Part shown: positions 41,545-55,825 of the stretch, in pieces
Position numbering within the stretch: the stretch's first letter is position 1
Layout of the letters: every line of letters starts with the position of its first letter
Source of the DNA: an uncultured delta proteobacterium
GTDB lineage: Bacteria > Desulfobacterota > Desulfuromonadia > Desulfuromonadales > BM103
Reading direction: 5' to 3'
NCBI GenBank assembly: GCA_963707155.1
Contig: CAVPPD010000030.1
Coordinates: 2,578-66,577, forward strand
DNA length: 64,000 nt
Translations under genes and position numbers: made by a program
Notes under the pieces: generated by a model
Seen by the model: only the letters and a program-made list of their open reading frames with translations
Told to the model about the DNA's origin: nothing
Database searches by the model: none

Positions 41545-41952
41545 CTACCAGTCCCGGTAGGGGATACCATTCAAACCGACCAGGTCGCTCCCGCTGAAAA
41601 CATTTTCCAGACCACCCTCGGCGAGCTCGCCCTCAATGGTCGGCGTAGGCGGCACCTCCTCCCAGGTCTCAGTGGACTGGGTGAACGGGTCACGAGGGAT
41701 GTCACGAATGTACTTGTTGGCAACAAGATCGTCTAAAGACTCCGGATAGCTGATATGGTCAGCGAAATAGGCATCGATTGCGCGGCGCATCTGATATAGA
41801 TTTTCCATCAACACCGCTTCACGCGCTCTGATCAGGTTGCGCTGGTAATTCGGCACCACGATGCTGGCCAGGATGCCAATAATGCTCATGACAATCAGCA
41901 GCTCGATCAGGGTGAAACCTCGCTGCGAAGCTTTTTTATTCTTCAGGATCAT
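41545..41952 (-). CDS. type II secretion pseudopilin (OxpG-like)
   Basis: G|FTLIEL; ARE.VL..NL..MR.AID.Y..D...YP.SLDDLV...Y.R.IP.DP.T. Confidence 0.88.
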   Translation of the reverse strand: MILKNKKASQRGFTLIELLIVMSIIGILASIVVPNYQRNLIRAREAVLMENLYQMRRAIDAYFADHISYPESLDDLVANKYIRDIPRDPFTQSTETWEEVPPTPTIEGELAEGGLENVFSGSDLVGLNGIPYRDW

Positions 41953-41958
41953 AGACTT

Positions 41959-42456
41959 TCACCAGGTATTGTAGGGAGTACCATCCATTGCCAGCTTCTG
42001 ACTCTGGGAATAAACATCGTAGATATCATCACCACCGTAGAATGTTGAGTCCGGATCGTCCTTGTACGAACGCAAGCCCCAGCCCTCGTCGTATTCGTCG
42101 AAGGGATCTTTTGGCAAGCGCCTCAAGTATTTGCGCTTGTAAGAGTACAGACCTCCCCAGTCACTGCCTTCGACCAGTTCTTGAAGATCTTTCGGATAGC
42201 CGGTTTCGTTGATAGCCGCGATAATTTTCTTTTCTTCAACAGCTCTGTCGAAGTCAGACTTGTAGTGATCGATAGCAGTTCGGATATCACGTAACGAGCG
42301 ACGCAGCTCCAGCTCCTTGCCACGTTTCGCGGTTACTTCTGCCATTGGCACGATCACCGTGGCAAGCACGGCCAAAATGGCCATGGCCAGGACCATTTCC
42401 AAAAGGGTCAGACCGCGTTGGCCTCCAGGTCTGGATATGTAACAAGACAATTTCAA
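41959..42456 (-). CDS. type II secretion pseudopilin (second, TklG-like)
   Basis: G|LTLLEM; KELELRR.LR.IR.AID, KYLRRLP.DP, DIYDVYS. Confidence 0.87.
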   Translation of the reverse strand: MKLSCYISRPGGQRGLTLLEMVLAMAILAVLATVIVPMAEVTAKRGKELELRRSLRDIRTAIDHYKSDFDRAVEEKKIIAAINETGYPKDLQELVEGSDWGGLYSYKRKYLRRLPKDPFDEYDEGWGLRSYKDDPDSTFYGGDDIYDVYSQSQKLAMDGTPYNTW

Positions 42457-45118
42457 TTGACTTCGATCATGACCGCCTCAGGAACGACCTGAAGTCGGAC
42501 CCCCGCAGGGTTACGGAAATTGACCCGGTTGATTTCAAGCTTGGTTTTTCCCGTCGTGATCGGCTTGAAACTAAGGCTGAACAGGTCTCCCGACCCTGAC
42601 GCACCCTGGCCGCCCGCGCCCTGTTTGTAACCGACAATAAGCTGCCCCGTGGTACGGTTGGGACTGCTTGAAAAGACTGTCGGCTGACCATCCTGCTTTA
42701 AAAAAGTCCCTTCGTTGATATTCACCAGTTCCAGAGCCGCCGGATCGTAGCTGACAAAGAGAGGCGCACTGTAGAGTTTTTCGACATCTCTAACTTGCAC
42801 CATAACGACAAATTCTTTATTAAGATCAACCTGTTCCGGTCCGTCAAATTGGATGACGGTCACTCCCCTCTCTGGAATTTCTAAGGAACCGGGAGTCGCG
42901 ACTTCATCCAGCCCCTTCATCTCCTCTGTCGGAACCAACTCCTCAAAAGGGTTTACAGTCCCCATTCGTTCAACCGGCACTGCAGGCTCAACAGCTTCAG
43001 GCTCAACAGCTTCAGGCTCAACAGCTCCAGGTTCAACAGCTCCAGGTTCAACAGCTCCAGGTTCAACAGCTCCAGGTTCAACAGCTCCAGGTTCAACAGC
43101 TCCGGGTTCAACAGCACCGGGTTCAACCACCGAGGCTCAACCACCGCAGGCTCAACCACCGCAGGCTCAACAGCCACGGGCTCATCCGTTAACGCCGAGG
43201 TTTGAGTCTTTTGCCTTTGTGTCTGGCTCTCGCTGATTGTAAATTTCAATGGTTTTACCGCAGGCACAGTATTCGGTTTGGTGAGTTCTATTTCACTCTC
43301 CAGTAATTGCGTAAAGGAGCCGAAATTAGGGCCACTCTTCAAGTTGTCTTCACCACCGGACCAGATGGTCGAGACCTCCATGTCTGGGACATCCACCTGC
43401 TTGACGATATAGGGCGTAATTGAAAGAAGAATCTCACGCTTTATATCCTCATTGGTAAAACTGGTGAACAGTTTTCCCAGGAATGGGATATCCCCGATAA
43501 TGGGAATCGTCGTTTCAGACTCTGTGGTCGCCTGCTCAAACAATCCTCCAAGAATGGTTTGCACACCATCTTTGATAGTGAGCACCGTTTGAGCGTTGGT
43601 TGTCTGAATCGTCAACGCACGGGTTCCTGCGATTTCGACCTCTTCGATGACCCGGCTGACTTCGAGAGCGACTTTAACTTCAACCGTATTATCCAGCTGG
43701 ATAATCGGCTCTATATCGACTTTGACACCGACATCTATGTATTGGACATTCGCTGTCGTCGATGTGTCTGTGACTGTGCTGGTTATGCTGGGTTCCCGCG
43801 TACCGATGTGGACTTTGGCTTTCTCTCTGTTTCTCACCCGGATCTTGGGGCTTGCCAGCACCTCTGAACTCGCTTGAGCTTTTTTGAATTCATATGAAGC
43901 CGTCGGAACGGTGAAAAAAGTCTGTAAACTGCTCAAACTGGTCGCGAGATTTTCATTACTGCCACCAGGGGAGAGAGTGCTGTCAAGGATACTTGTCGAG
44001 CCGGGGTTTGAAAAGCCCACCCCCACTCCATAGGTCGACAACTCCGGACCGAAATCCAGAGTGTCGGCATCGGCGACGCTGAGGATCTCCAGAGCAAAAA
44101 GAACTTCCGAGTTTTCACGGTCCGCAGCATCCAGAATCTGCTCAGCAAGCTTGATAACCTGCGGTGTATCACGGATAACGATGGCATTGCGCTCTTCATG
44201 CACGTAAATCTTGCGCAGTTGCAACATGGTGCGCAACAGATTAACTGCCTTCTTGGCATCGATGTGGGAGAGGAAAAAAGTCTGGATTATCTGGTCTTCG
44301 TACTGTTTGGCTTTCTCCCTGCTCTGCGGGTAAATGATGAGCGTCTTGCTGTTGAGTACTTTCTTGTCCAGGCCGTTCATCTGCATGATCAATTCCATCG
44401 CCTGGGCAAAACTTGCTTTTTCCAGAAGAACGGAAATCGTCTGGGTACGGATTTCTTCGTCAAAAATAAAGTTGATGCCACTCAACTGAGAAAGGACACC
44501 GAAGACTTCCTTGATATTGGCATCCTTGAAACTCAGGGTAATGGGTTCGGTGGAGGCAACATCGAGCTCGATTCCGTCCATGGCAACGGTACGCATGTCG
44601 CGATCAATCAAATCCTTAATGGCCAAGGCGCGCGCATTGTTGGCATCCAGTGCAAGGGCCTCTTTGATCGCCTTTTGTGCAAGGTTAAATTTTCTTTGCC
44701 CGTAGAAACTTGCTCCTTCTTCAGCCAGTTTCTCTGCATTGATCAGCTTGAGCAAATCATCACGCTCCTGCGCCGCAATTTCTATGCTCGAATCAAAACC
44801 AAGTGCAAGACGATACTCGGCAATAGCTTTTGACAGCTTGCCTTCCGATGCAAGCTTGCGCGCCAGTCTGACATGATGAGCAGCGGCACGGGTTTTTGAA
44901 GAGATCATTTTCAATTTATAGGTCTTGCTGCTCGGTTCCAGCTCAGAAGCTTCAAAGTATTTTTCAACCGCTTCGTCGTGCCTGTCTTCAGCAAAAAGCT
45001 GTTCAGCTTCTTCAAAAGCCGAACGCGCTTCCATGGAGGTGGTGCATCCACCCAACCAAAGTGAGGCAAGGAGCAGAATTACCCACCCGGCAAAACGGAT
45101 ATTATCGATTCGGATCAT
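42453..45118 (-). CDS. lipoprotein secretin (GspD/PilQ-like) with N-terminal TPRs, repeat linker and C-terminal cohesin-like domain; one frameshift near 43132
   Basis: lipobox LGGC, TPR helices, ITLSFKDANIKEVF, LASPKIR, YIDVGVK, GGL, IPIIGDIPFLGKLF, ITPYIV; C-terminal SYDP..LEL..I.EG...SGSG.L..L.F. Confidence 0.88.
42983..43185 (-). repeat. ~14 x 15-bp tandem repeat encoding (A/V)VEP(G/E/A)
   Basis: TCAAC recurs every 15 nt from 42988 to 43182; one unit is 14 nt. Confidence 0.95.
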
Positions 45119-45929
45119 TGACTTCTTCCTCCGGGGCAGCCTCATCAGCAGGGGCTACTTCTTCCTGACGTTCTTCGGGGTTATTCTCTTCAATGATTTG
45201 TTGAAAAGGGTTCTCGATGTCCTGCGGTGACGGCCTTAGCATTTTTCGCTTCGGCGTAAAAATCCGTTGATCGGGTTGGCCAGACACTGCCGCTTTCGGC
45301 TCCAGGCGGGCAGGTGAACTGGCGGACGCATTCAACTTCTGCTGCTCGATCAATTGTATCTCAACGAGGCTGTCACGACCGGGATGGTGGACTTTCAAAA
45401 GGTTGCCGACGATGGAATCCACCCGGAACTCATGATCCACTCCAAATGTTTCACCACGTTTAACAAGAAAAATCTCTCCACCGCTGGACAGAAAAACTGT
45501 CTTTTCCCCGGCTTTTTCAAGAAAACCGAGGAAGGTGAATTCTCCCAACGATTTTTGTACGACGTCAAATGGCACCACCGGTGCTATCGGTGCGACCGGT
45601 TGCACTGACGTTTCGACAACGACCGGCGCAGGGAGTACCGGCGGCGTCTCGGGGCGCGGTGAAGGCTTCTTGCCGAAATGGAAGATATCCCTTTGTGCGC
45701 CGGAGAACTCTTGTAATTCCAGAGACAAAAAATCGAAGTTGATGCGCTCGTGTGAACTCTCAAGCGTCTGGTCTTTAGTCTCTTTAGTCACTTTGGCCAG
45801 GACACGAGCCCGCTGGCTCTCTGTCCGTGGTGGCGCCTTTTCCTGCCTGGGTGTTGCTAAGTAGGCATAGAGCAGAGAGAGAGCCAGCACTCCCAGAAGC
45901 GCTGCAAGAATGACACGCTTGCGATTCAT
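45102..45929 (-). CDS. PilP/GspC-like inner-membrane-anchored secretion component
   Basis: N-terminal TM, RDIF, Pro-rich linker, F.FLGFLEK...K.VFL; between PilO-like gene and secretin. Confidence 0.7.
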   Translation of the reverse strand: MNRKRVILAALLGVLALSLLYAYLATPRQEKAPPRTESQRARVLAKVTKETKDQTLESSHERINFDFLSLELQEFSGAQRDIFHFGKKPSPRPETPPVLPAPVVVETSVQPVAPIAPVVPFDVVQKSLGEFTFLGFLEKAGEKTVFLSSGGEIFLVKRGETFGVDHEFRVDSIVGNLLKVHHPGRDSLVEIQLIEQQKLNASASSPARLEPKAAVSGQPDQRIFTPKRKMLRPSPQDIENPFQQIIEENNPEERQEEVAPADEAAPEEEVNDPNR

Positions 45930-46498
45930 GGCTCTCGCGTCTCCGGACGGAAAAAGGTTTCCAGATTCAAGCGCAAATTGACACCATTATCATCCGCACT
46001 TTGCAAACTGATCTGTTTGATCACCATCAGACGCACCGATTGCTCCAGAGAGTGGATAAATTTTTTGATCTGCTCGTAATCTCCCACAACATTGAAGCTC
46101 AGATTGAATTTCAGCAGAGGGATGTCTCCCATTTTCTCCGAGGTGTAACCGATCTGGGCAATATCCAGACGAGCCCGGTTGGAAAGAATCAGCAATTCCT
46201 CGATCAGCCCGGTAAATTCACGGTATTCCGGAACGGTCTGCTGAAATTTGGCGATATCCTGGCTGGCCAGCAGGTAGAGCTGTTCCGGACTTGTCGCCGC
46301 ACCACCCTGTTTACGAATTAATTGGCGAATTTCACCCTGCTTTTGCAGAAAAGCTGTTTCCTTTGCTGCAATTTGAGGGACTATCATTTGTTCGAGGACA
46401 ACGAAAAGGACAAGGTTCACCCCGATCAGGAGAGCAAGGAAAATGAGCAAACCTCGCTGAGAACTCCACAGCTGTCCGGCAAATTCTTTCAGGTACAT
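45926..46498 (-). CDS. PilO/GspM-like protein
   Basis: TM then coiled coil, V.GDYEQIKKFI..LE...R...I..I.L. Confidence 0.8.
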   Translation of the reverse strand: MYLKEFAGQLWSSQRGLLIFLALLIGVNLVLFVVLEQMIVPQIAAKETAFLQKQGEIRQLIRKQGGAATSPEQLYLLASQDIAKFQQTVPEYREFTGLIEELLILSNRARLDIAQIGYTSEKMGDIPLLKFNLSFNVVGDYEQIKKFIHSLEQSVRLMVIKQISLQSADDNGVNLRLNLETFFRPETREP

Positions 46499-47053
46499 CA
46501 GAAGGCCTCCCTGATTAACAGAGAGAAACCAATTTGCTCCTGCGATATCCGCACCCACCGTAACCTTAATCTCACCATGTTGCTGCAGGTACGCCTGACT
46601 GAGGTCTTCAGATATCAGAAGATTATCGACAAAGCGTGTCATCGCCGAAACATCGAGGGCAACACAGGAGAGCCTCACAGACTGCTTGTTAAAATCAGGT
46701 TGAATTGTGCGGATACTGACGTCGACCGGTAGCAGTTCCTCAAACCTGGTCAACAAATTCGTCCAACGAAACTGATCGGCCGCAATAATTTCATTTCCCA
46801 GGGCAACTTCACTCTTCACCTCTGCATACTTTTCCGGGGAATAAGCAGCCGTGACTCCCTGGACGCCAGGCATCTGTGCTCCCAGTTCCACGAAACGATC
46901 GTCCAACAACCTTAACTGTCTCCAGCATTGAGTAGCGTAGTAGCCATCAAGAGCCAGCAGCAAGGCAAAAAAAACACAGCCAAACAGCAGCCAGAAGCGA
47001 ATGCGCTGACGGTTCAAATAAGGTTTAGTGGCAAGATTGAGTTTAATTTCCAT
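46498..47053 (-). CDS. PilN-like protein (frameshift near 46555 creates an apparent fusion to PilO)
   Basis: LNLAT.PY, TM, W..LL..FEELLP.DV.I..I.P; alternative frame ends EQIGFSLLIREAF-TGA overlapping the PilO ATG. Confidence 0.78.
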
Positions 47054-47058
47054 TGGCT

Positions 47059-47967
47059 TTACATCATATGCTCTGCTGCGCCCAAAGCAGCGAGGACAGA
47101 ACCGACAGGTTGCAATCCACCATCTCTGCCGTTACCGCCGAAACGTTTCAGGGCCGGGTCCAGACATTTAACCTCACGTTTAAATGCGGCAGAGAGAAGC
47201 GTGTCTACATCCCCGTCCATCCCGGGATCGACATGTGCCATAACGACACACCTCTTCATAACCGGAAAAGAGTCATAAGCTTCGACAAGAGTGCGGTTAA
47301 TTTCACGAAAAGTTCGCTCAGGACTCGCCTTAAATTCACTGACCCGTTGATAACAGATGCTGTGGCCGACCACATACTGGAGACTCAGAAGACCGTGTTC
47401 CAGCGCCACCAGGATGAATTCGTCTCCAAGGTCGAGACGCGGGCGGTAATAATTATAGAGATTCAGTGAATGGAAATTGATGTGTATTGCATGTCGACGC
47501 GCTTCATTAACAAGATCCTCGTATTGCTCGATAACCGGTTGAGCAATCGCCGCGACAACGCAGCTTTGGCGCCCGTCCTCACGCTTGTCGAGCACCTGGT
47601 AATCAAGCTTGACCTGAGCCGGAGGTGCCGGCAGGTTTGATTTAAGGCGCCATTTGAGGATATCAATTCCTTCCTGGTGAGTTTTGAACGGAGCATCAAC
47701 CTCTGTCAGATAAATGCGACCGGCACGATCAGGCAGGCTCAAAGCAATGCGCTCTTCCTGACCAGCCAGGGCATCAACCCCACGTCGTAATCCTTCTATG
47801 AAACGCCTGGCATCACGAATGTTTGGCTGACGGCTGGAGACCTCCAGAACCCCCTCCAGGCTCTCAAAACGCAGCCCGACCAGTTGAGTCTGAGACCGAT
47901 GGCGTTTCAAAGCCGCCAGATAAAGCCCACCGGGCTGAATATCAACACCGACATAAACCCGGCTCAT
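47059..47967 (-). CDS. PilM/GspL-like actin-fold protein
   Basis: YVGVDI, ALSLPD, W.LK..LP....LDYQ, AALGAA. Confidence 0.8.
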   Translation of the reverse strand: MSRVYVGVDIQPGGLYLAALKRHRSQTQLVGLRFESLEGVLEVSSRQPNIRDARRFIEGLRRGVDALAGQEERIALSLPDRAGRIYLTEVDAPFKTHQEGIDILKWRLKSNLPAPPAQVKLDYQVLDKREDGRQSCVVAAIAQPVIEQYEDLVNEARRHAIHINFHSLNLYNYYRPRLDLGDEFILVALEHGLLSLQYVVGHSICYQRVSEFKASPERTFREINRTLVEAYDSFPVMKRCVVMAHVDPGMDGDVDTLLSAAFKREVKCLDPALKRFGGNGRDGGLQPVGSVLAALGAAEHMM

Positions 47968-49697
47968 TGTCGCCCTCCGCCCTGATCGGCAAAGGTGACG
48001 CGGTTGATTTCTGCAAGGGTCGTCTCACCTTTAAGCATCTTCTCCACTGCAGCGTCACGCAGGAAAGCCGTTCCCGCAGCGCGGGCCGCTTCCTTAAGGC
48101 GACTGACAGGAGCCTTGCTGACAATCAGATCGCGCAGGTCATCGTTGAGATCAAGCAGTTCAAGAATCGCGGTACGACCGTGATAGCCCTGGCCGTTGCA
48201 CTCCCGGCATCCGGCGCCTTCATAAAAAGTGTGATCTTTGTAGCGGTCGTAATCAAGTCCAGATTCAACAAAGTCCTGGCGGTCATAAGTGACGGTCCGT
48301 TTGCAGTGTCTGCAAATTTTACGCACCAGACGTTGAGCTGCCACGCAGTTCAGACAGGAGACAAAATTGTAAGCATCGATACCCATGTGCAAAAAACGCC
48401 CGAGCACATCAAACACGTTATTGGCATGTACAGTCGTAAAGACCAGGTGTCCGGTCAAAGCTGATTGCACCGCAATCTGGGCAGTCTCAGGATCACGTAT
48501 TTCGCCAACCATAATTTTGTCCGGGTCGTGACGCAAGATGGAGCGCAGTCCACGGGCGAAGGTCAGCCCCTTCTTTTCGTTCACAGGTATCTGCACAACA
48601 CCCTTCAGCTGGTATTCGACAGGATCCTCAATGGTGATGATTTTTTCCTCTTCGTTATAAATCTCTGTCAGTGCCGCATAAAGCGTCGTCGTTTTGCCAC
48701 TGCCAGTCGGTCCGGTCACCAGCACCATGCCATACGGCTCACGAATCATCCGACGAAAACGTGTCAGTTCGTGCCCTTCCACACCGAGCACATCAAGGGT
48801 CAGGCCATGAAGATCTTTGGCAATGCTTTCCTTGTCGAGAATCCTGATGACAGCATCTTCACCGAAGATACTCGGCATAATGGAGACACGGAAGTCGATT
48901 GACTTGGTTCCCATACGGACTTTGAAACGACCATCCTGGGGAATGCGTCGTTCGGAGATATCAAGCTCGCTCATGACCTTGATACGAGAAATGATTGGCC
49001 CCTGGAAGCGCCCGTCCAAAGGTTCCGTGGCGCGGAACAGGACACCGTCGACACGATATTTGATCTGAACGCCGCTTTGACTGCTTTCAATATGGATATC
49101 ACTGGCACGCTTTTTCAGAGCATCAAAAAGAGTCGAATCAATCAGACGAATGATCGGGCTGCTGTCATCGGTAAGCTTTTCGATCGACAGAACTTCCTCG
49201 CCTTTATCCGTTTCCTTGACAAGCTGCAGTTTAAAATCTTCGGAAACATTTTGGAGAACCTGTTTTGAACTCTGGCTTTTGTCCAGTAACGCGGCAATCT
49301 TGCTCCGGGCACCGACCTGGCAAACCAGTTGTGCATCAAGCTGCATTTCAAGATCGTCGAGTTCTGCTACGTTGGTTGGATCAGAGATCGCGATCACCAG
49401 ACCATCTTCGGATTTTTTCAGCGGGATGAAATTGTAGCGAATCGGCAGGTCGGATGGCAGAGATGCACTCAGTTCCGCATCCAGAAGAATCGTATCAAGA
49501 TCGACATATTCAAGATCGAACTGCTGAGCCAGGGCCTGAGCGACCAGTTCATCTGAGAGCAGGCCACGAGCAATGCCCACTTCACCGAACCGCTGCCCCG
49601 AAGAACCTTGCTGGTCGAGGATCAGACGCACTTCAGCAGGAGCGAGGGCGCCCATATTGACCAGGATTTCACCTATTTTACGATGTTCGAACTGCAT
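47964..49697 (-). CDS. GspE/PilB secretion ATPase with N-terminal MshEN-like motif
   Basis: [43 protein letters not shown], tetracysteine motif; N-terminal RKIGEILV...RFGE...GLL....AQALAQQ. Confidence 0.93.
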   Translation of the reverse strand: MQFEHRKIGEILVNMGALAPAEVRLILDQQGSSGQRFGEVGIARGLLSDELVAQALAQQFDLEYVDLDTILLDAELSASLPSDLPIRYNFIPLKKSEDGLVIAISDPTNVAELDDLEMQLDAQLVCQVGARSKIAALLDKSQSSKQVLQNVSEDFKLQLVKETDKGEEVLSIEKLTDDSSPIIRLIDSTLFDALKKRASDIHIESSQSGVQIKYRVDGVLFRATEPLDGRFQGPIISRIKVMSELDISERRIPQDGRFKVRMGTKSIDFRVSIMPSIFGEDAVIRILDKESIAKDLHGLTLDVLGVEGHELTRFRRMIREPYGMVLVTGPTGSGKTTTLYAALTEIYNEEEKIITIEDPVEYQLKGVVQIPVNEKKGLTFARGLRSILRHDPDKIMVGEIRDPETAQIAVQSALTGHLVFTTVHANNVFDVLGRFLHMGIDAYNFVSCLNCVAAQRLVRKICRHCKRTVTYDRQDFVESGLDYDRYKDHTFYEGAGCRECNGQGYHGRTAILELLDLNDDLRDLIVSKAPVSRLKEAARAAGTAFLRDAAVEKMLKGETTLAEINRVTFADQGGGRQ

Positions 49698-49711
49698 GCT
49701 TCGGCCCTAAC

Positions 49712-50917
49712 CTACTGTACCGTTCCAGCCATTTGAAAAATGGGGATATACATGGCAACGACGATTCCGCCAATCAGCAACCCCATCGTCATCATCATCA
49801 ATGGCTCAACCATTGTGGTGAGACGATCAAGGCGTCGTTCGACCTCATTCTCGTAATACTCCGAAACGTCCGTCAGCATATCAACTAACGAACCGCTCGT
49901 TTCGCCGACACCGATCATTCGAAGTGCAATCACCGGAAAGTTGCCGGTCTGCTCGAGGGCTTCAGAAACCCTCGCCCCCTCTTGAATACGGTTGACCGCC
50001 CCGGAGAGCTCTTTCTCCAGGACACGGTTGTTCAATGTCTTGCGCGACATTTGCATCGCCTGAACGATGGGAATCCCGCTCGCCATCGTTGTTGCAAAAG
50101 TCCGACAGAATGTCGACAGAGCATATTCACTCAACAGCGCCCCGAAAAAGGGGAGTCTCAGCTTGACCCGATCAATCACTAAAGCCCCTTTCTCTGTACG
50201 CACGTAGGCTCGCAACAAAAAGAGACTGATCAGCAGTGCCGGCAGCCAGAAAGGCAAACCCGCCAGCAGACCATTGGCGACGGCGATGACCATGCGGGTC
50301 AATAATGGCAGTTGCATGTTCGCATCTGCATAAACCTGGGTAAAACTCGGGATCACGTACAACAGAAGGAAGCCGAGCACCACCGTCACAGCAATCGCCA
50401 GAAGCGCCGGGTAGAAAGTCGCGCTGCGCACTTTCGCTCTTATCGCTTCGACACGCTTCTGGTACTCAATATAGCGCCCAAGGGTAATTGGTAAATCCCC
50501 CGACTGCTCGCCGGCCTGCAGTGAAGCGACATAGAGTTGCGGGAACATCTTCGGGAAACGTCCGAAGGCCTCGGAGAGAGAGCTGCCTCCCTTCACGTCT
50601 GTGCGTATATCTTGCAGGGCGTTGAGAAGCCCTCCCGCTTCCATACGGTCAACCAACGTGTCCAGAACCTGTAAAACCGGCAGGCCTGAACGAATAAGCA
50701 CTAACATCTCTTGATTGAGTGCCAGGAACCGACGTCCGCTTAAACTTCCCCCGCCAGCTCCCTTGGAGAACCACTGCAAAGAGACTTTATGCATCTTGAA
50801 GACAAAGAAACCCTGCTCTTCAAGACTCTCCTGAAGAGCCTCACGGCTCACCGCCTCGAAGTCCTTCTCGAGAACCCGGCCATCAGAGGTTCCAATTTTA
50901 CAGCGATACGTGGACAT
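49712..50917 (-). CDS. GspF/PilC inner membrane platform protein
   Basis: SGLP, G.SLSEA, GEQSG.L, FYP, GETSG.L..ML, EP....MG....YIPIF. Confidence 0.93.
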   Translation of the reverse strand: MSTYRCKIGTSDGRVLEKDFEAVSREALQESLEEQGFFVFKMHKVSLQWFSKGAGGGSLSGRRFLALNQEMLVLIRSGLPVLQVLDTLVDRMEAGGLLNALQDIRTDVKGGSSLSEAFGRFPKMFPQLYVASLQAGEQSGDLPITLGRYIEYQKRVEAIRAKVRSATFYPALLAIAVTVVLGFLLLYVIPSFTQVYADANMQLPLLTRMVIAVANGLLAGLPFWLPALLISLFLLRAYVRTEKGALVIDRVKLRLPFFGALLSEYALSTFCRTFATTMASGIPIVQAMQMSRKTLNNRVLEKELSGAVNRIQEGARVSEALEQTGNFPVIALRMIGVGETSGSLVDMLTDVSEYYENEVERRLDRLTTMVEPLMMMTMGLLIGGIVVAMYIPIFQMAGTVQ

Positions 50918-50988
50918 TAGCCTTAACGTTTAACATAATTGGCAAAAAAACTGAACGAAAATCCCTCGGCAGAGGTCATCAAGGCCAC

Positions 50989-51016
50989 AAAAAAGGCCGG
51001 TCTTTCGGGACCGGCC
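50989..51016 (-). terminator. intrinsic terminator after the cytochrome pair
   Basis: minus strand GGCCGGTC-ccgaaa-GACCGGCCTTTTTT. Confidence 0.8.
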
Positions 51017-51042
51017 GTGCATGTGAAGTTATCATAAATCAA

Positions 51043-52788
51043 CTAGTATTCCTTGGGGTTATGTTCCACACCATGGCAGTTGAGATAACAGGCACCATGC
51101 CGGGCGGCAAAACCCTGCGCTTCGTACTTCAGCTTACCATCAGCGTTCTCAAAGACAACGTCTTCGTTGAACTTGAGGAGGTGCTGGTACTGCACACTAC
51201 CGTGTGCATCGTGACAGGTAAAGCAGGAGGTTCCACCCTGACCCCCAGAACGTCCCTCGATATGCAAAGAGTGATACAGGAAACTCTCGTTTGACAAGAT
51301 ACTGATGCGATCATGACACTTGTAACAAAGGGCATACTCCTGCTGGCTCTCGGAGCGTTCGTCATCCATCTGGTAATTCAGGACCAGCAACCCGGGATAA
51401 TTCGATCCATGAGGACCCTTGGGCCCATTGGGATCATCACTGCCATGGCAGTCACTGCAACTGATTTGCGACACATCCTTCGGTTTCTGTTTCTGGGCGA
51501 CATAAGGCTCTTTGAGGCTGATAACAAAGGTGTTCTTGCCTTCACCCTCAACCGGATGGAAAGAAGGATTCGTGGTTTTGAACTCCTCGTGTTTGTTGGT
51601 GGAATTCCCCGGCAGGTTGGCGCTCTCGGAGTGACAGCGATAACAGAGTTCATATTCCTGAGAGATGTCCGCCATGAAGTTGCCGACTCGTCGTCCGGTG
51701 AGACCACGATAAGGGTTTCCCTTTTCGACCACGTGAGATTCGTGACAATCGACGCACTCCGAATGACGTGCGGCGTTGACAATGTCTTCCGGGAGCGACT
51801 CGTTTTTCAAATGCACGCCCTGAATAGTCAGGACTGGATGATTGTAAGGTTTACTCAGCTCTGCAAAGATATTCGGCAGGGAGAGGCTGCCGGTGTTTTT
51901 CAAAAAACCTTTTTCAATCATCTCTGCCCGGGCAGTTGCATCGCTGTGGCAGGGCAGACATGTTCCTTCTTCCCCGCTGACAGCCATCTTCATGCCCATA
52001 TGGCACGCCCGGCAACTTTTTGACATCACCGAACGATCACCGTGACTCCCCTTCAGCTTACCAAGGCCGCTATTTGCCCGGACATGGCCCATGGCCCCGG
52101 CAGTTGGCGAAGACGGAGCCGAGGAGCCGCTTGCCGGCTGACTGGTGGGCTCAAAATCCGGCAAAACCGGCACCGGCTGACCGGCCTTGGGCTGGCTGGG
52201 CTGAGCGGGAGCTGGTACGGAGCTGCTGTCCATGACCTGACTCGAGGGTTCAGACACGGGTACAGACATGCGACCCTTAGGCTGGCTGGGCTGAGCGGGA
52301 ACTGGTACGGAGCTGCTGTCCATGACCTGACTCGAGGGTTCAGACACAGGCACAGACCTGTTATCCCCGGATCGGTTCCTGGGGTTGGAAACCGGCGTAG
52401 ACCTGCTGCCCAAAGGTTCGCTCATGGGCTCGAAATCCGGCAAAACAGGCAGCGTCAAGTTTTTGGGCTGGTTCTGGTTCGTGTTGCGGGAGGGCGGAAC
52501 AGCAGTGTCCCCCGCTGGCCGGTTCGTAAACACCTCTGGTGGTGCTGACTCCGGAGTGCCGTCCAGGGGTTGGTCCGTGGTTTCAGCCGCCGGAAGAGAG
52601 GACTCCTCCGTGCCTTCTACAGGCTGTCCCGAGGATTCGTCAGCAGGCAGCAGTTGCCCCGAAGCACTCGTTGTAGACTGGCTCATGGACTCCGAGACAG
52701 ACAAGAAGAAGCATGAGAGTGTCAATAACAGCACAAACACAAGCGGCATTCTATACAAAACGCAGACCTTCATAATCATTTTGTCCAT
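51043..52788 (-). CDS. multiheme cytochrome c (7 CxxCH + 1 CxxxCH) with Pro/Ser-rich N-terminal region
   Basis: CRACH, CLPCH, CVDCH, CYRCH, CSDCH, CYKCH, CFTCH, CYLNCH; signal peptide. Confidence 0.92.
   Translation of the reverse strand: MDKMIMKVCVLYRMPLVFVLLLTLSCFFLSVSESMSQSTTSASGQLLPADESSGQPVEGTEESSLPAAETTDQPLDGTPESAPPEVFTNRPAGDTAVPPSRNTNQNQPKNLTLPVLPDFEPMSEPLGSRSTPVSNPRNRSGDNRSVPVSEPSSQVMDSSSVPVPAQPSQPKGRMSVPVSEPSSQVMDSSSVPAPAQPSQPKAGQPVPVLPDFEPTSQPASGSSAPSSPTAGAMGHVRANSGLGKLKGSHGDRSVMSKSCRACHMGMKMAVSGEEGTCLPCHSDATARAEMIEKGFLKNTGSLSLPNIFAELSKPYNHPVLTIQGVHLKNESLPEDIVNAARHSECVDCHESHVVEKGNPYRGLTGRRVGNFMADISQEYELCYRCHSESANLPGNSTNKHEEFKTTNPSFHPVEGEGKNTFVISLKEPYVAQKQKPKDVSQISCSDCHGSDDPNGPKGPHGSNYPGLLVLNYQMDDERSESQQEYALCYKCHDRISILSNESFLYHSLHIEGRSGGQGGTSCFTCHDAHGSVQYQHLLKFNEDVVFENADGKLKYEAQGFAARHGACYLNCHGVEHNPKEY
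52185..52358 (-). repeat. two near-identical 90-bp-period direct repeats (30 aa)
   Basis: SVPVSEPSSQVMDSSSVP(V/A)PAQPSQPK twice; nucleotide blocks at 52191 and 52281 almost identical. Confidence 0.93.
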
Positions 52789-52824
52789 CGGCAGGATTCC
52801 CACCTCACGTCAACAAGTGCCTTT

Positions 52825-53583
52825 TCAAGGAATATTGTGAATGGGCGGCGGTGATGCGATTGTCGGAGCGGTATGACAGGCGTTGCAGACATCATCATAG
52901 TAAGAATCAGTCACAGTGCCCCGATGACGCCAGAACGGCAGACCATAAACCCCCCGGGTATCCTCATGCGGGTCATGACAGGTCGTACACTGCATCTGTC
53001 CTGAGCCGTCGAGAGGAGTATCGATAGAACCATCAGGCAGCTGGTAAGCCCCCGGCTTCGCAGGGTTCAACACATTGGCAAGAACATCATTGTTGTAATT
53101 AAAAGAAATCGGATGAGATGTCGCCAGATCGATCACCGCAGAAACGTTAGTGATGGTTTCACTGCCTCCCTCCATCGTGACGGGTGTCCCGGCAAGCACA
53201 ACTCCAATGGAAGTCGCACCATCATGACAGGAAAGGCACATACGTGAGGCACCACTGGGGTATTTTGCCGGGTCACTCGTCGTGTACCCTGTTCGGCCAG
53301 GGTCTGTTTTGATCGCCAGAGCTGAAGCATAAAGCTGGAAGGTGGCTGTTGTCGGGTCAGGTCGGTTCCAAAGTGGCGTCTGGGGGGCAGCAGAATGGGG
53401 AGTATGACAAAAGACACAAACCCTGTCCGTGCCACCGGCAAGCGTTGTCGCCGCCTTGGGGCCAGAGTGCGTTGCGAGATTAGACATATTGTGAAGGTTA
53501 TTACTGTCGGCAATTGACAACGCGCAGGAAAGCGATGACGTGGTCAGAACCAGCACTAATGCAATAAGGAGATTTCGTTTCAT
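52825..53583 (-). CDS. secreted tetraheme cytochrome c, OmcE-like
   Basis: signal peptide; CVFCHTPH..PLWNR, CLSCHDG, HP, CTTCHDPH, CNACH. Confidence 0.88.
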   Translation of the reverse strand: MKRNLLIALVLVLTTSSLSCALSIADSNNLHNMSNLATHSGPKAATTLAGGTDRVCVFCHTPHSAAPQTPLWNRPDPTTATFQLYASALAIKTDPGRTGYTTSDPAKYPSGASRMCLSCHDGATSIGVVLAGTPVTMEGGSETITNVSAVIDLATSHPISFNYNNDVLANVLNPAKPGAYQLPDGSIDTPLDGSGQMQCTTCHDPHEDTRGVYGLPFWRHRGTVTDSYYDDVCNACHTAPTIASPPPIHNIP

Positions 53584-53644
53584 AACTTATGTCTATTGAA
53601 CCGTTAATTCAGAGATATTTTTTGGGCTGATTCCAAATAAAACC

Positions 53645-53660
53645 TGCAATAAACACGCCA
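53645..53660 (-). promoter_or_regulatory. sigma54 (-24/-12) promoter of the cytochrome pair
   Basis: TGGCGTGTTTATTGCA: GG-N10-GC, ~60 nt before the ATG. Confidence 0.7.
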
Positions 53661-53690
53661 TTGGCGCATGCAGGCGGCCCGACAAGCTCA

Positions 53691-54718
53691 TCACGGAAGC
53701 AACTGGAAAGCCTGAATCCTGTGATTGTAGGAATCCGCGACGAAAAGTCGCCCTTCGTGGTCTATAAACAAACCCGCCGGCAGGTTAAACTGACCGGCCT
53801 GTCGACCGGCACTGCCCCAGTACATGAGTAGATTTCCCGCCATATCAAAGACCTGAATGTTGTCAAATGCCGAGTCCGAGACGAAAACGTGACCGGCCTG
53901 ATCAACGGCAAGTCCTTTCGGTCGTGCCATGTAACCAGCGGCATCGCCGAGCTGCCCGATCGTGCCAAGAAGTTCGCCCTGGGCATTCAAGACCTCAATC
54001 CGGAACGAAAAGGCATCGAGAACCAGAATTTCACCATTCGGCCCGACAGCGACATTCAGAGGCCTCGCAAAGAGCCCGTCCGGGTTCAGCCTTACTTCGA
54101 ACCTCAGTCGCCATCGAACCGTCAGCGATTAAAAACATAGACGACCCCGGCACCCGCGTCCGCGACCAGCAATCGGCCGTCATGGGCCAGGGCCATTCCC
54201 GCCGGGCGTTTAAAACCTCCCGGTGGCGCCCAGCTTTCGAGATATTTCCCGGCGGAGTCGAGGACAAGCACCTGACTGTGGCCCGCATCAGCCATAAATA
54301 CCCGCTGACGCTCATCATCCACAGCAAGACCACTCGGGGAAACGAGGCTCAATCCTGAGAAGTTCAGGAAATAATCAACCTTGCGGCGATTCATATCAAA
54401 GCGGTAGAGCATTTGTGCGACATTATCGGCCACCCAGACCGTTCCAGAACGACTGGATGCAACAGCGAAAGGACCGACAAGAGAAGGTTCTTCCTGACGC
54501 TCGCCAAGCAACCAGCTCAAAGCTCCGGAAGCCCTGGCAGTCTCTTTGAAATCCTCGGGGCCGGACAAACTGCGCAGATAGCGAACACGCGGCTGATCAG
54601 GGGGTTCCGGCCACACCAGGTTGACAGCCTCATCCTGCCAGGCAACCGGCCCTGAAATCGATCCAGCGCAGCCAGTCAGCAACAGACAGAGGAGAAAAAA
54701 GGGGAGCGACCTGATCAT
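53691..54718 (-). CDS. NHL-repeat beta-propeller lipoprotein (frameshifted read)
   Basis: lipobox LTGC, VWP.PP..PR, repeated P.GLAVD..G..FV.D....IQVF. Confidence 0.87.
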
Positions 54719-54730
54719 CCGCCAGCCTGC

Positions 54731-55706
54731 CTACTGGTCAAAACGCTCGATGGGATATTTTTCTTTAAGCGAGGCCATCCATTGTCGTAGAGTTCCTTCA
54801 CGCTCAGCACCAACAAGGCTGGCGCGAATCTTGGCTGACACTTCATCAAACTTCAACTGACGCTCCTCATCGACCTTATCAAGTTTGATGATGTGAAAAC
54901 CGATACATGGTTCGCACCGGCCCGGACGATTTCACCAGCGGACATGTTCTGAATGGCTGCATCAAATTCAGGAACCGTCTGGCCGGCATGAAAAGCCCCC
55001 AGACTACCACCCACATATTTACTGCGATCATCAGACTCGTAGTAGGCGAGGTTATAGAAATCTTCACCGGCGATGAGCTCTTTTCAGGAGAGCCTCGGCA
55101 CGGGCGCGTTTGACTTCCTTTTCTTCTGCATTATCTGATGGATCGACCTTCACAAAGACATGACTGGCTGTGAACAGCTTGGGACGGAAATATCTCGACT
55201 TGTTCTCCTCATAGTAGGCGGCGACACTATCGTCGGTCACCGTTATTTTCTCATCGACAGCGACCGATTCTGCCTTGCGGGCGAGCAGGTCGAGATAAAG
55301 GTCTGCTTTGATTTTGGCGGCACTGGGGGGTATGGACATTACTCGGCCAAAGGTTTATTTTCACTGAGTTTCTTCTGCCATTCTTTCTCAAAGGCAGCGG
55401 CGTCAATTGAGATCTCATTATCGATCGCATACTGCACCTTGTAAGCACGTTCAATCAGTTCATCAAGAGCCTTCTGTTTGATTTCGGCAATCTTCTCAGC
55501 ATCCAGACCGCCATGAAAACTGACCTGCATCGGCAGGATCTTTTGCGCACGAAGATCAACGTCCGCTTGGGTAATAACCAGGTTCCCGACCTTCACCACC
55601 TTGCTTTCTGCTTGCAGCAGCCTGTTCAATAGCAATGGCAGTTAAAGGGAACCATGCACACACCATGGCCAGGGCGATCAAAAGGAATTCGAGACGAAAG
55701 GGACAT
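54731..55706 (-). CDS. PpiC/SurA-type peptidylprolyl isomerase (frameshifted read)
   Basis: AGGAG RBS; SurA-N helices ALDELIER, ASHVFVK, GGSLG.FHAG, G.HIIKL across frames. Confidence 0.8.
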
Positions 55707-55796
55707 GAAAGACTTCTCCTTGGATGTTCTCACTGGTTTTTACACAAAAAGCACAGGGTAGATGCGTCATTGCGTAAACAGAGGGTTAATCCGGTC

Positions 55797-55825
55797 AATA
55801 TATAAAGCAATAACCCCAATGTCAA
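55797..55825 (-). promoter_or_regulatory. sigma70 promoter upstream of the PPIase-NHL genes
   Basis: TTGACA-17-TATATT. Confidence 0.7.

What the first reader, a model, noticed from the sequence alone, without database searches (positions are those of the whole stretch)
41545..55706. Candidate cytochrome-nanowire folding, assembly and export system: PPIase + NHL propeller + two multiheme cytochromes + T2SS/T4P hybrid
Seen: one co-oriented block of PPIase, NHL lipoprotein, tetraheme cytochrome, ~8-heme cytochrome, GspF, GspE, PilM, PilN, PilO, PilP-like, secretin and only two pseudopilins, with no PilT, GspHIJK or porin. Known: Geobacter OmcE/OmcS polymerise into heme nanowires; OmcS-associated clusters include a prolyl isomerase and beta-propeller proteins; the Geobacter OxpG T2SS is needed for Fe(III)-oxide reduction. 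Inference: this locus pairs those chaperones with a secretin channel, suggesting a route in which an OmcE-like cytochrome is folded, exported through the OxpG-type system and wired by the tethered octaheme. The T2SS itself is a known type; the link to these cytochromes as substrates is the untested part.
Basis: partly seen in the sequence, partly recalled or inferred. Interest (0 to 1): 0.85.

Follow-up and report, generated by a model that had tools for sequence, protein, structure and literature searches.

The report
Stopper module for OmcE cytochrome nanowires
Next to an already known secretion machine lies a likely separately transcribed four-gene cassette whose small heme protein is a relative of the nanowire protein OmcE carrying one extra histidine, is kept or lost together with the distant OmcE genes, and likely caps and wires the end of the nanowire rather than being the nanowire or its export route.

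Summary
The genes are there, but they form two modules. The secretion genes are the known Pul/OxpG system (orthologues of G. sulfurreducens GSU1776-1784). The scan noted this pairing before on another genome (e1-3121897). Pul occurs in 196 of 250 Desulfuromonadia genomes, 113 of them without the cytochrome cassette. A conserved terminator-like hairpin separates the two.

The tetraheme has the OmcE fold but is not the nanowire subunit's orthologue. It forms its own clade, has a C-terminal tail with a ninth histidine, and is fused to the octaheme in other clusters. Its D. soudanensis orthologue is Dsoud_2415. Petersen et al. 2026 named that protein as a candidate nanowire anchor but doubted it because it lies outside the omcE cluster.

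Here the cassette tracks the unlinked omcE barrel (75 both, 165 neither, 10 discordant; phi 0.91) far better than the adjacent Pul (0.37). Best reading (0.45): a cap-plus-octaheme base for OmcE filaments, with a propeller and a PPIase as helpers. Binding is untested. An omcP-cluster control also co-occurs, and this 62%-complete genome shows no omcE.

The parts
55797..55825 (-). sigma-70-like promoter match upstream of the cassette (11 of 12), after the tRNA-Asp/Val/Asp array
   Evidence: consensus match only
54731..55729 (-). SurA/PpiC-type periplasmic PPIase, broken by at least 4 frame changes (likely assembly indels); start approximate
   Evidence: intact 332-aa orthologue in L012
53691..54718 (-). 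NHL beta-propeller lipoprotein (GSU1788 orthologue), one frameshift near 54128-54104
52825..53583 (-). OmcE-fold tetraheme with four conserved distal His plus a C-terminal tail His249; orthologue of GSU1787 and Dsoud_2415; candidate nanowire cap
51043..52803 (-). Octaheme cytochrome (7 CXXCH + 1 CX3CH; GSU1786 orthologue) with a genome-specific Pro/Ser linker; homologous to the C-terminal part of fused 11-12-heme proteins
50995..51016 (-). Intrinsic-terminator-like hairpin with U-tract between cassette and pul genes
   Evidence: z -3.0; conserved in 40 of 74 loci
49712..50917 (-). PulF (GspF/PilC family)
47964..49697 (-). PulE ATPase with MshEN domain and a c-di-GMP-motif match just under the cut-off
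47059..47967 (-). PulM (PilM-like)
45926..47053 (-). PulN and PulO; read as one ORF only because of a frameshift near the end of pulN
45102..45929 (-). PulP-like (no family hit; positional orthologue)
42453..45145 (-). PulQ lipoprotein secretin: TPR-STN-secretin-linker-cohesin; frameshift at the 15-bp repeat array (42983-43174)
41959..42456 (-). Pseudopilin PulG
41545..41952 (-). Pseudopilin OxpG

Best explanation
The block is two neighbours: the known Pul/OxpG secretion system, and a likely separately transcribed cassette that likely encodes the cap and electron inlet at the base of OmcE nanowires, whose filament subunit and likely exit barrel are encoded at a distant locus. Shown: the tetraheme keeps the OmcE core and four distal histidines, adds a ninth, and pairs genetically with the octaheme (fused in other clusters). 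The cassette is gained and lost with the omcE cluster. Inferred: the ninth histidine, or a spare histidine of the octaheme, fills the heme left open at a filament end and so stops growth. The octaheme would continue the heme chain into the periplasm. The propeller lipoprotein would hold the pair at the outer membrane and the PPIase would fold these proline-rich cytochromes. Pul would not be needed to export the filament subunit.
For: Orthologue of Dsoud_2415 (ALC17176.1; ALC17169.1 = DSOUD_2408, consecutive; 47% identity). PMC13712944 singles it out as the 4-heme/9-His anchor candidate. Ninth His: tail His in 53 of 54 Desulfuromonadales domains; His just before CXXCH-4 in 31 of 44 Geobacterales and 2 of 2 from another class; 1 of 68 stand-alone tetrahemes. 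Own clade, SH-aLRT 99, apart from OmcE. Tetraheme and octaheme tile fused 11-12-heme proteins end to end (hhalign E 3e-54 and 3e-83). All 24 fused-type loci fetched in the class carry their own stand-alone tetraheme, and 22 of 24 a barrel-like ORF before the propeller. Co-occurrence with the unlinked omcE barrel: 75 both, 8 cassette only, 2 barrel only, 165 neither of 250. Both-or-neither contrasts recur inside 8 of 10 genera tabulated. Only 2 of 72 multiheme-rich genomes without the cassette have the barrel. Terminator-like hairpin after the cassette in 40 of 74 loci against 0-1 of 63-79 after internal genes and 0.8% in shuffles.
Against: No interaction was shown. The window's own genome (62% complete) has no omcE or barrel match. 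The kin site is at a contig end, but a 91%-identical ccsB lies elsewhere without omcE behind it. 13 of 44 Geobacterales domains have no ninth His near heme 4, and its position differs between orders. Co-inheritance is not unique to omcE: 37 of 38 strong hits of an omcP-cluster protein also fall in cassette genomes (phi 0.58; 0.33 at the loose cut-off). Kin are not independent. The tree leaves the cassette-fused relationship unresolved. Which OmcE histidine crosses subunits was not checked here. Tn-seq shows no strong electrode defect for GSU1786-1788 (-0.73, -1.16, -0.56 against the paper's -2 line).
Confidence: 0.45

Rival explanations
1. The cassette is a periplasmic 12-heme relay (tetraheme plus octaheme) that serves the same extracellular-electron-transfer lifestyle as OmcE and OmcP. 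It is retained with them as a suite but does not cap any filament; Pul is an unrelated neighbour.
For: GSU1786 is grouped with periplasmic cytochromes in the cytochromome survey. The omcP-cluster control co-occurs too. No lipobox on either cytochrome. Terminator and separate regulation from pul.
Against: Only 2 of 72 multiheme-rich cassette-less genomes carry the omcE barrel. The OmcE fold, the N-terminal His (97 of 104 domains) and the ninth His are kept. Self-contained barrel clusters encode the same pair fused, next to a stand-alone OmcE-type subunit.
Confidence: 0.25
2. The cassette is an OmcE accessory and Pul is its export or installation machine: the folded cap-octaheme pair is pushed through PulQ to act as a surface or tip adaptor for OmcE filaments that leave by their own barrel.
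For: 83 of 83 cassette genomes have Pul, while 3 of 34 genomes with only barrel-type fused clusters lack it. Adjacent in 74 of 79 loci. The link persists in another Desulfobacterota class in a different chromosomal setting (L050, L051/L265, L263), with only a 42-bp gap and no hairpin in L050. Fused clusters also abut pulF in G124 and G255.
Against: Conserved terminator-like hairpin. pulF has its own regulated promoter region, and pul genes change without GSU1785-1788 and vice versa. Five f12 genomes have the modules separated. Pul is near-universal in the class and the same system type occurs without adjacent cytochromes in Betaproteobacteria. This genome has two canonical Gsp systems and type IV pili as other routes.
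Confidence: 0.2
3. One reading: the tetraheme is itself a nanowire subunit, folded by the PPIase and propeller, secreted through Pul and wired by the octaheme.
For: OmcE fold and all four distal His; no porin in the block; PPIases and propellers serve OmcS and OmcZ (passages); cassette always with Pul.
Against: Not in the OmcE clade. Tail of median 14 residues and a longer heme 3-4 loop, where 63 of 75 stand-alone domains end 1-2 residues after CXXCH-4. A ninth His would close the inter-subunit site. DSOUD_2415 did not fit the D. soudanensis filament map. It tracks a separate omcE cluster.
Confidence: 0.07

Closest known systems
Geobacter sulfurreducens Pul/OxpG atypical type II secretion system, GSU1776-GSU1784 (Mehta et al. 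2006, seen only as cited in PMC3543383 and PMC10599522)
   Same: Same gene order before ftsE, TPR-secretin-cohesin PulQ, two pseudopilins; 29-66% identity for PulM, PulQ, PulF, the pseudopilins and PulE (L101); D. soudanensis orthologues are annotated PulF, PulN, PulQ, OxpG.
   Different: The reported substrate is the multicopper oxidase OmpB, not cytochromes. The window lacks the GT2 (GSU1789) and 3-heme (GSU1785) genes and has a PPIase instead.
Dsoud_2415, candidate OmcE 'anchor/stopper' of Desulfuromonas soudanensis (PMC13712944, Discussion)
   Same: Direct orthologue: same position, 47% identity, four hemes and nine conserved-position His.
   Different: The paper names one protein and doubts it for lying outside the omcE cluster. 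It does not mention the octaheme partner, the fused forms, the pul linkage or the co-inheritance found here (sections 7, 8, 9, 12 read; supplement not readable).
OmcE nanowire subunit (PDB 7TFS, 9YUQ) and its cluster
   Same: Fold, CXXCH spacing pattern and four distal His; propeller lipoprotein neighbour.
   Different: 29-33% identity, separate clade, C-terminal tail and ninth His, no large beta-barrel next to it.
osc (omcS companion) cluster (Shen et al. 2025, seen only as cited in PMC13194489 and PMC13712944)
   Same: Folding helper and propeller-type proteins encoded with cytochromes.
   Different: No OmcS-type hexaheme and no porin here; the helper genes were not shown to be orthologous.
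Uncharacterised barrel-type clusters with a fused 11-12-heme protein (e.g. L170 in G062, L178, L072, L057)
   Same: Propeller followed by the OmcE-fold domain plus the octaheme domain, in one chain; two such loci also carry a 39-42% identical PPIase.
   Different: They hold their own stand-alone tetraheme and a barrel-like protein; the window's version is split in two and has neither.

Membership tests
Pul/OxpG atypical T2SS | Order pulF-E-M-N-O-P-Q-G-oxpG, usually before ftsE | tested here: met
   (L101)
Pul/OxpG atypical T2SS | Lipoprotein secretin with TPR/STN N-terminus and C-terminal cohesin domain | tested here: met
   (one frameshift in the window copy)
Pul/OxpG atypical T2SS | No retraction ATPase or GspHIJK in the locus | tested here: met
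Pul/OxpG atypical T2SS | Secretes OmpB-type or other folded substrates | not testable with these tools
   experimental
Canonical Gsp T2SS | GspC/L/M platform and minor pseudopilins GspHIJK | tested here: not met
   absent from the block; canonical-looking sets lie on contigs C15 and C38 (read from ORF order and translations)
OmcE nanowire subunit | OmcE fold, 4 CXXCH and four distal His | tested here: met
   E 9e-24 to 7TFS; Foldseek prob 1.00 on a pLDDT-65 model; H31/63/157/206
OmcE nanowire subunit | Chain ends 1-2 residues after CXXCH-4 with only eight conserved His | tested here: not met
   15-residue tail with His249
OmcE nanowire subunit | Falls in the OmcE clade | tested here: not met
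OmcE nanowire subunit | Large beta-barrel gene in the cluster (criterion used in PMC13712944) | tested here: not met
OmcE nanowire subunit | Polymerises into filaments | not testable with these tools
   the paper reports the orthologue did not fit the D. soudanensis map
OmcE anchor/stopper candidate (Dsoud_2415 type) | Four hemes, nine His, OmcE-like structure | tested here: met
OmcE anchor/stopper candidate (Dsoud_2415 type) | Co-evolves with the filament locus | tested here: met
   phi 0.91; not unique to omcE; kin not independent
OmcE anchor/stopper candidate (Dsoud_2415 type) | Binds a filament end and stops growth | not testable with these tools
osc (OmcS companion) system | OmcS-type hexaheme plus porin in the cluster | tested here: not met
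   no OmcS hit in PDB searches of either cytochrome; no porin

The most novel reading that the evidence does not exclude
OmcE nanowires are built by a two-locus machine: the omcE cluster supplies filament and barrel, and this cassette supplies a 12-heme cap-and-inlet (a split form of a fused protein found across many phyla) that the adjacent Pul secretin system exports or installs, which would explain why cassette and pul have stayed side by side in two classes of Desulfobacterota.
Probability: 0.2. Interest if true: 0.85.

Novelty: new variant of a known kind. Interest (0 to 1): 0.62.

Why it matters
How cytochrome nanowires are terminated, anchored and connected to the periplasm is stated as open in PMC13712944 and PMC12307469. 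This analysis ties the one published anchor candidate to a conserved four-gene cassette, supplies the co-inheritance whose apparent lack made the authors doubt it, and names its partner. In the model organism these are GSU1785-GSU1788, so the question can be tested with single deletions and one histidine mutant. It also predicts that the many uncharacterised barrel clusters with a fused 11-12-heme protein (Desulfobacterota, Acidobacteriota, Planctomycetota, Bacteroidota, Nitrospirota) are self-contained nanowire systems with their own cap. The secretion system itself is not new.

Tried and rejected
The AlphaFold2 model of a fused protein was too poor to use (pLDDT 53.6). The tetraheme model was only moderate (64.7). 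No solved relative of the octaheme was found.

The ~670-aa ORFs of fused clusters have no Pfam or PDB family and only one below-cut-off NCBIfam hit. They show no detectable homology to the omcE neighbour (hhalign prob 4). They are called barrel-like only from C-terminal motif, alternating pattern and a lead-level Porin_4 hit (0.88, 33% of members).

Sequencing runs: no RNA holder listed. Contigs laid on the region were too fragmentary to test the frameshifts. A lenient terminator heuristic (59 of 74) had no control and was replaced by the strict one.

Rejected: a real PilN-PilO fusion, pseudogenisation of the cassette (housekeeping genes are broken alike), a lipid-tethered octaheme, and GT2 (GSU1789) as a fixed cassette part (kept in cassette-less L226, L227, L230 and absent in Desulfuromonadales).

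Papers by Mehta 2006, Shen 2025 and Wang 2022 were not held and are cited second-hand. The supplement of PMC13712944 could not be read and may bear on Dsoud_2415.
Full report
Observation. The octaheme has seven CXXCH and one CX3CH. PPIase, NHL, pilN and secretin carry frameshifts, but so do lon, tig, ftsX and the envC-like gene, and same-genus orthologues are intact. I treat these as assembly indels (inference; the reads laid could not test it). The genome is 62% complete; named close relatives are Desulfuromonadales MAGs.

The secretion half is known. The locus in G062 (L101) has the same order with 29-66% identity for PulM, PulQ, PulF, the pseudopilins and PulE. Its two cytochromes match G. 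sulfurreducens records exactly. Its gene sizes and spacing match GSU1776-GSU1788 in a published table (constant offset, my arithmetic). PMC3543383 (passages) calls this the Pul system, needed for OmpB secretion and duplicated in a species with no ompB. A pseudopilin query found it in 196 of 250 class genomes at least 90% complete. The same architecture occurs with no adjacent cytochromes in Eleftheria, and pseudopilin matches occur in Ralstonia and Burkholderia replicons.

Linkage of cassette and Pul. Octaheme orthologues (E at or below 1e-89; next best 4e-40) occur in 83 of 250 genomes. I read the neighbourhood of 82 (G260 not fetched): pulF adjacent in 74, not adjacent in 5 (all family f12), contig too short in 3. 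All 83 have Pul somewhere, and 113 of 196 Pul genomes have no cassette. Of 20 pul upstream regions fetched, 9 keep lon-HU next to pulF and have lost the cassette with its PPIase, one leaving an octaheme remnant. The PPIase was found at 23 of 29 informative Desulfuromonadales and 16 of 42 Geobacterales loci. The link also holds in another class of the phylum in a different setting (L050, L051/L265, L263), so it is old.

The modules look separately transcribed. A strict hairpin-plus-U-tract test was positive after the cassette in 40 of 74 loci, against 1 of 79, 0 of 78, 0 of 64 and 0 of 63 after internal genes and 0.8% in shuffles; the window has the hairpin. In PMC10599522 (passages and supplement search) pulGPQF rise in the gsu1771 mutant, GSU1771 binds the pulF promoter region, and GSU1785-1788 are not listed. 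In PMC10063792 (passage and supplement search) GSU1787 and GSU1789 fall and no pul gene is listed. Tn-seq (PMC5585712, passages and supplement rows) gives electrode log2 ratios of -0.02 to -1.16 for the six genes looked up, short of the -2 line; pooled screens can hide extracellular functions.

The tetraheme is not the OmcE orthologue. It matches 7TFS (E 9e-24; Foldseek) and keeps four distal His. In a tree of 162 domains, thinned from 211 at 72% identity (quick IQ-TREE, SH-aLRT only, midpoint drawing), the Pul-linked tetrahemes form one clade of 71 rows with support 99. OmcE of both solved structures lies in a separate 55-row clade, support 97. Of 75 stand-alone domains 63 end 1-2 residues after CXXCH-4; 97 cassette-type domains have tails of median 14 and a longer heme 3-4 loop. 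Seven of the 75 were cassette members mislabelled by the script and were relabelled. For 95 of 97 the best non-cassette BLAST hit is the N-terminal domain of a fused 11-12-heme protein, though the tree leaves that relationship open. Profiles of tetraheme and octaheme tile the fused proteins end to end. All 24 fused-type loci fetched in the class also hold a stand-alone tetraheme, and 22 have a 655-926-aa barrel-like ORF before the propeller (barrel identity is inferred).

The anchor link. PMC13712944 (abstract, sections 7, 8, 9, 12 and passages) notes that the OmcE interface has a heme needing a His from the next subunit. It reasons that an anchor would have four hemes and nine His, and names Dsoud_2415 as fitting but outside the omcE cluster. 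The preprint's supplementary legend says DSOUD_2415 did not fit the filament map. The cassette tetraheme of G061 is ALC17176.1, and ALC17169.1 seven genes away is DSOUD_2408, so it is DSOUD_2415; the window protein is 47% identical. A ninth His is a family trait: in the tail in 53 of 54 Desulfuromonadales domains, just before CXXCH-4 in 31 of 44 Geobacterales and 2 of 2 from the other class, absent in 13 of 44 Geobacterales, and present in 1 of 68 stand-alone domains. The octaheme has 11 invariant non-CXXCH His for 8 hemes, and its first one corresponds by position to a nearly invariant His about ten residues after heme 4 of the fused proteins, so it could supply the ligand (inference).

Co-inheritance. 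The omcE-cluster barrel (DSOUD_2953 as query) was found in 77 of the same 250 genomes: 75 with the cassette, 2 without; 8 cassette genomes lack it and 165 have neither (phi 0.91, against 0.37 for Pul). The loci are about 0.6 Mb apart in G061 and 1.3 Mb apart in G062. Both-or-neither contrasts recur inside 8 of 10 genera that I picked for having several genomes. Of 72 cassette-less genomes with 10 or more paired-CXXCH matches, 2 have the barrel, and none of 34 genomes with only fused-type clusters has it. Seven of the 8 cassette-only genomes gave other OmcE-like matches.

Results against this reading. A second control, an omcP-cluster protein, gave phi 0.33 at E 1e-20, but 37 of its 38 strong hits are cassette genomes (phi 0.58). 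Retention of a whole electron-transfer suite is therefore a live rival, and kin are not independent. The window's genome shows no omcE or barrel. Its purH-purD-purE-resB run ends at a contig end where same-genus G011 continues into ccsB and the omcE cluster, yet a 91%-identical ccsB lies on another contig without omcE. Its status is undecided, although 4 of 4 well-assembled same-genus cassette genomes have the barrel.

Mechanism. Shown: gene content, orthology, fusion elsewhere, ninth His, co-occurrence, terminator-like site. Inferred: tetraheme and octaheme form one 12-heme unit. The tetraheme joins an OmcE filament end, closes the open heme site and stops growth, and the octaheme carries electrons in from the periplasm. 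The propeller lipoprotein positions the unit and the PPIase folds it, by analogy with OscH and the OmcZ isomerase (passages). The filament would leave by its own barrel, as PMC13712944 favours.

Novelty. Pul is published, and Dsoud_2415 has been proposed as an anchor. Searches for GSU1785-1788, Dsoud_2414/2415, oxpG and secretin-cohesin terms found no paper that links the candidate to this cassette, the fused forms, pul or co-inheritance with omcE. The library lacks most subscription papers, including Mehta 2006, Shen 2025 and Wang 2022. Other papers seen as passages only: the cytochromome preprint, PMC8557921, PMC7894505, PMC9473688, PMC12307469. Verdict: new variant of a known kind; interest 0.62, because it makes the open question of nanowire anchoring testable in a model organism.

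Noticed in passing
L178 (G124:C100) and L272 (G255:C36): A complete barrel-type cluster (13-heme, stand-alone tetraheme, two propellers, 5-heme, barrel-like ORF, fused 4+8-heme protein) sits directly upstream of pulF, a second juxtaposition of the same domain pair with Pul.
   Followed up: partly
L168-L191, L057-L062, L072, L074, L078, L270, L276: Widespread uncharacterised clusters with stand-alone OmcE-type tetraheme, barrel-like protein and fused cap-octaheme across Desulfobacterota, Planctomycetota, Acidobacteriota and Bacteroidota; candidate self-contained nanowire systems. Nitrospirota loci (L052, L079) have the pair split again.
   Followed up: partly
L050, L051/L265, L263, L277 (family f31): Another Desulfobacterota class has NHL-4 heme-8 heme-(3 heme)-pul with a third pseudopilin, outside the lon/ftsE context; GT2 precedes the cassette in L050 and L051.
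   Followed up: partly
window 52185-52357 and 42983-43174: A 90-bp tandem duplication lengthens the octaheme's Pro/Ser linker and a 15-bp array (EPGAV-type repeats) lengthens the secretin-cohesin linker; both are peculiar to this genome.
   Followed up: partly
G000 contigs C15, C38, C11: Two further canonical-looking Gsp type II secretion clusters and a type IV pilus locus in the same genome.
   Followed up: no
G000 C6:1-5060 and C36:25829-30211: purHDE-resB ends at a contig end where kin carry ccsB and the omcE cluster; a 91%-identical ccsB lies on C36 beside a transposase-like ORF (label from recall) and a second ccs-like pair.
   Followed up: partly
L220, L224, L225: Extra pul copies in cassette-less genomes lie next to very large (940-1990 aa) ORFs and a pilin-like gene, possible alternative Pul substrates.
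   Followed up: no
window 47964-49697: PulE has an MshEN domain with a c-di-GMP-binding motif match (36.6 bits, cut-off 38), hinting at cyclic-dinucleotide control.
   Followed up: no
L149 (G079) 11145-14888 of L041; L207, L208: A 35-heme protein directly follows the octaheme where pul has moved away; 56-58-heme giants follow OmcP-type tetrahemes in two genomes.
   Followed up: no
window 36258-63000: Frameshifts in lon, tig, ftsX, envC-like and apparently ctpA show a high indel error rate in this assembly; apparent pseudogenes or fusions from this genome need checking against kin.
   Followed up: yes
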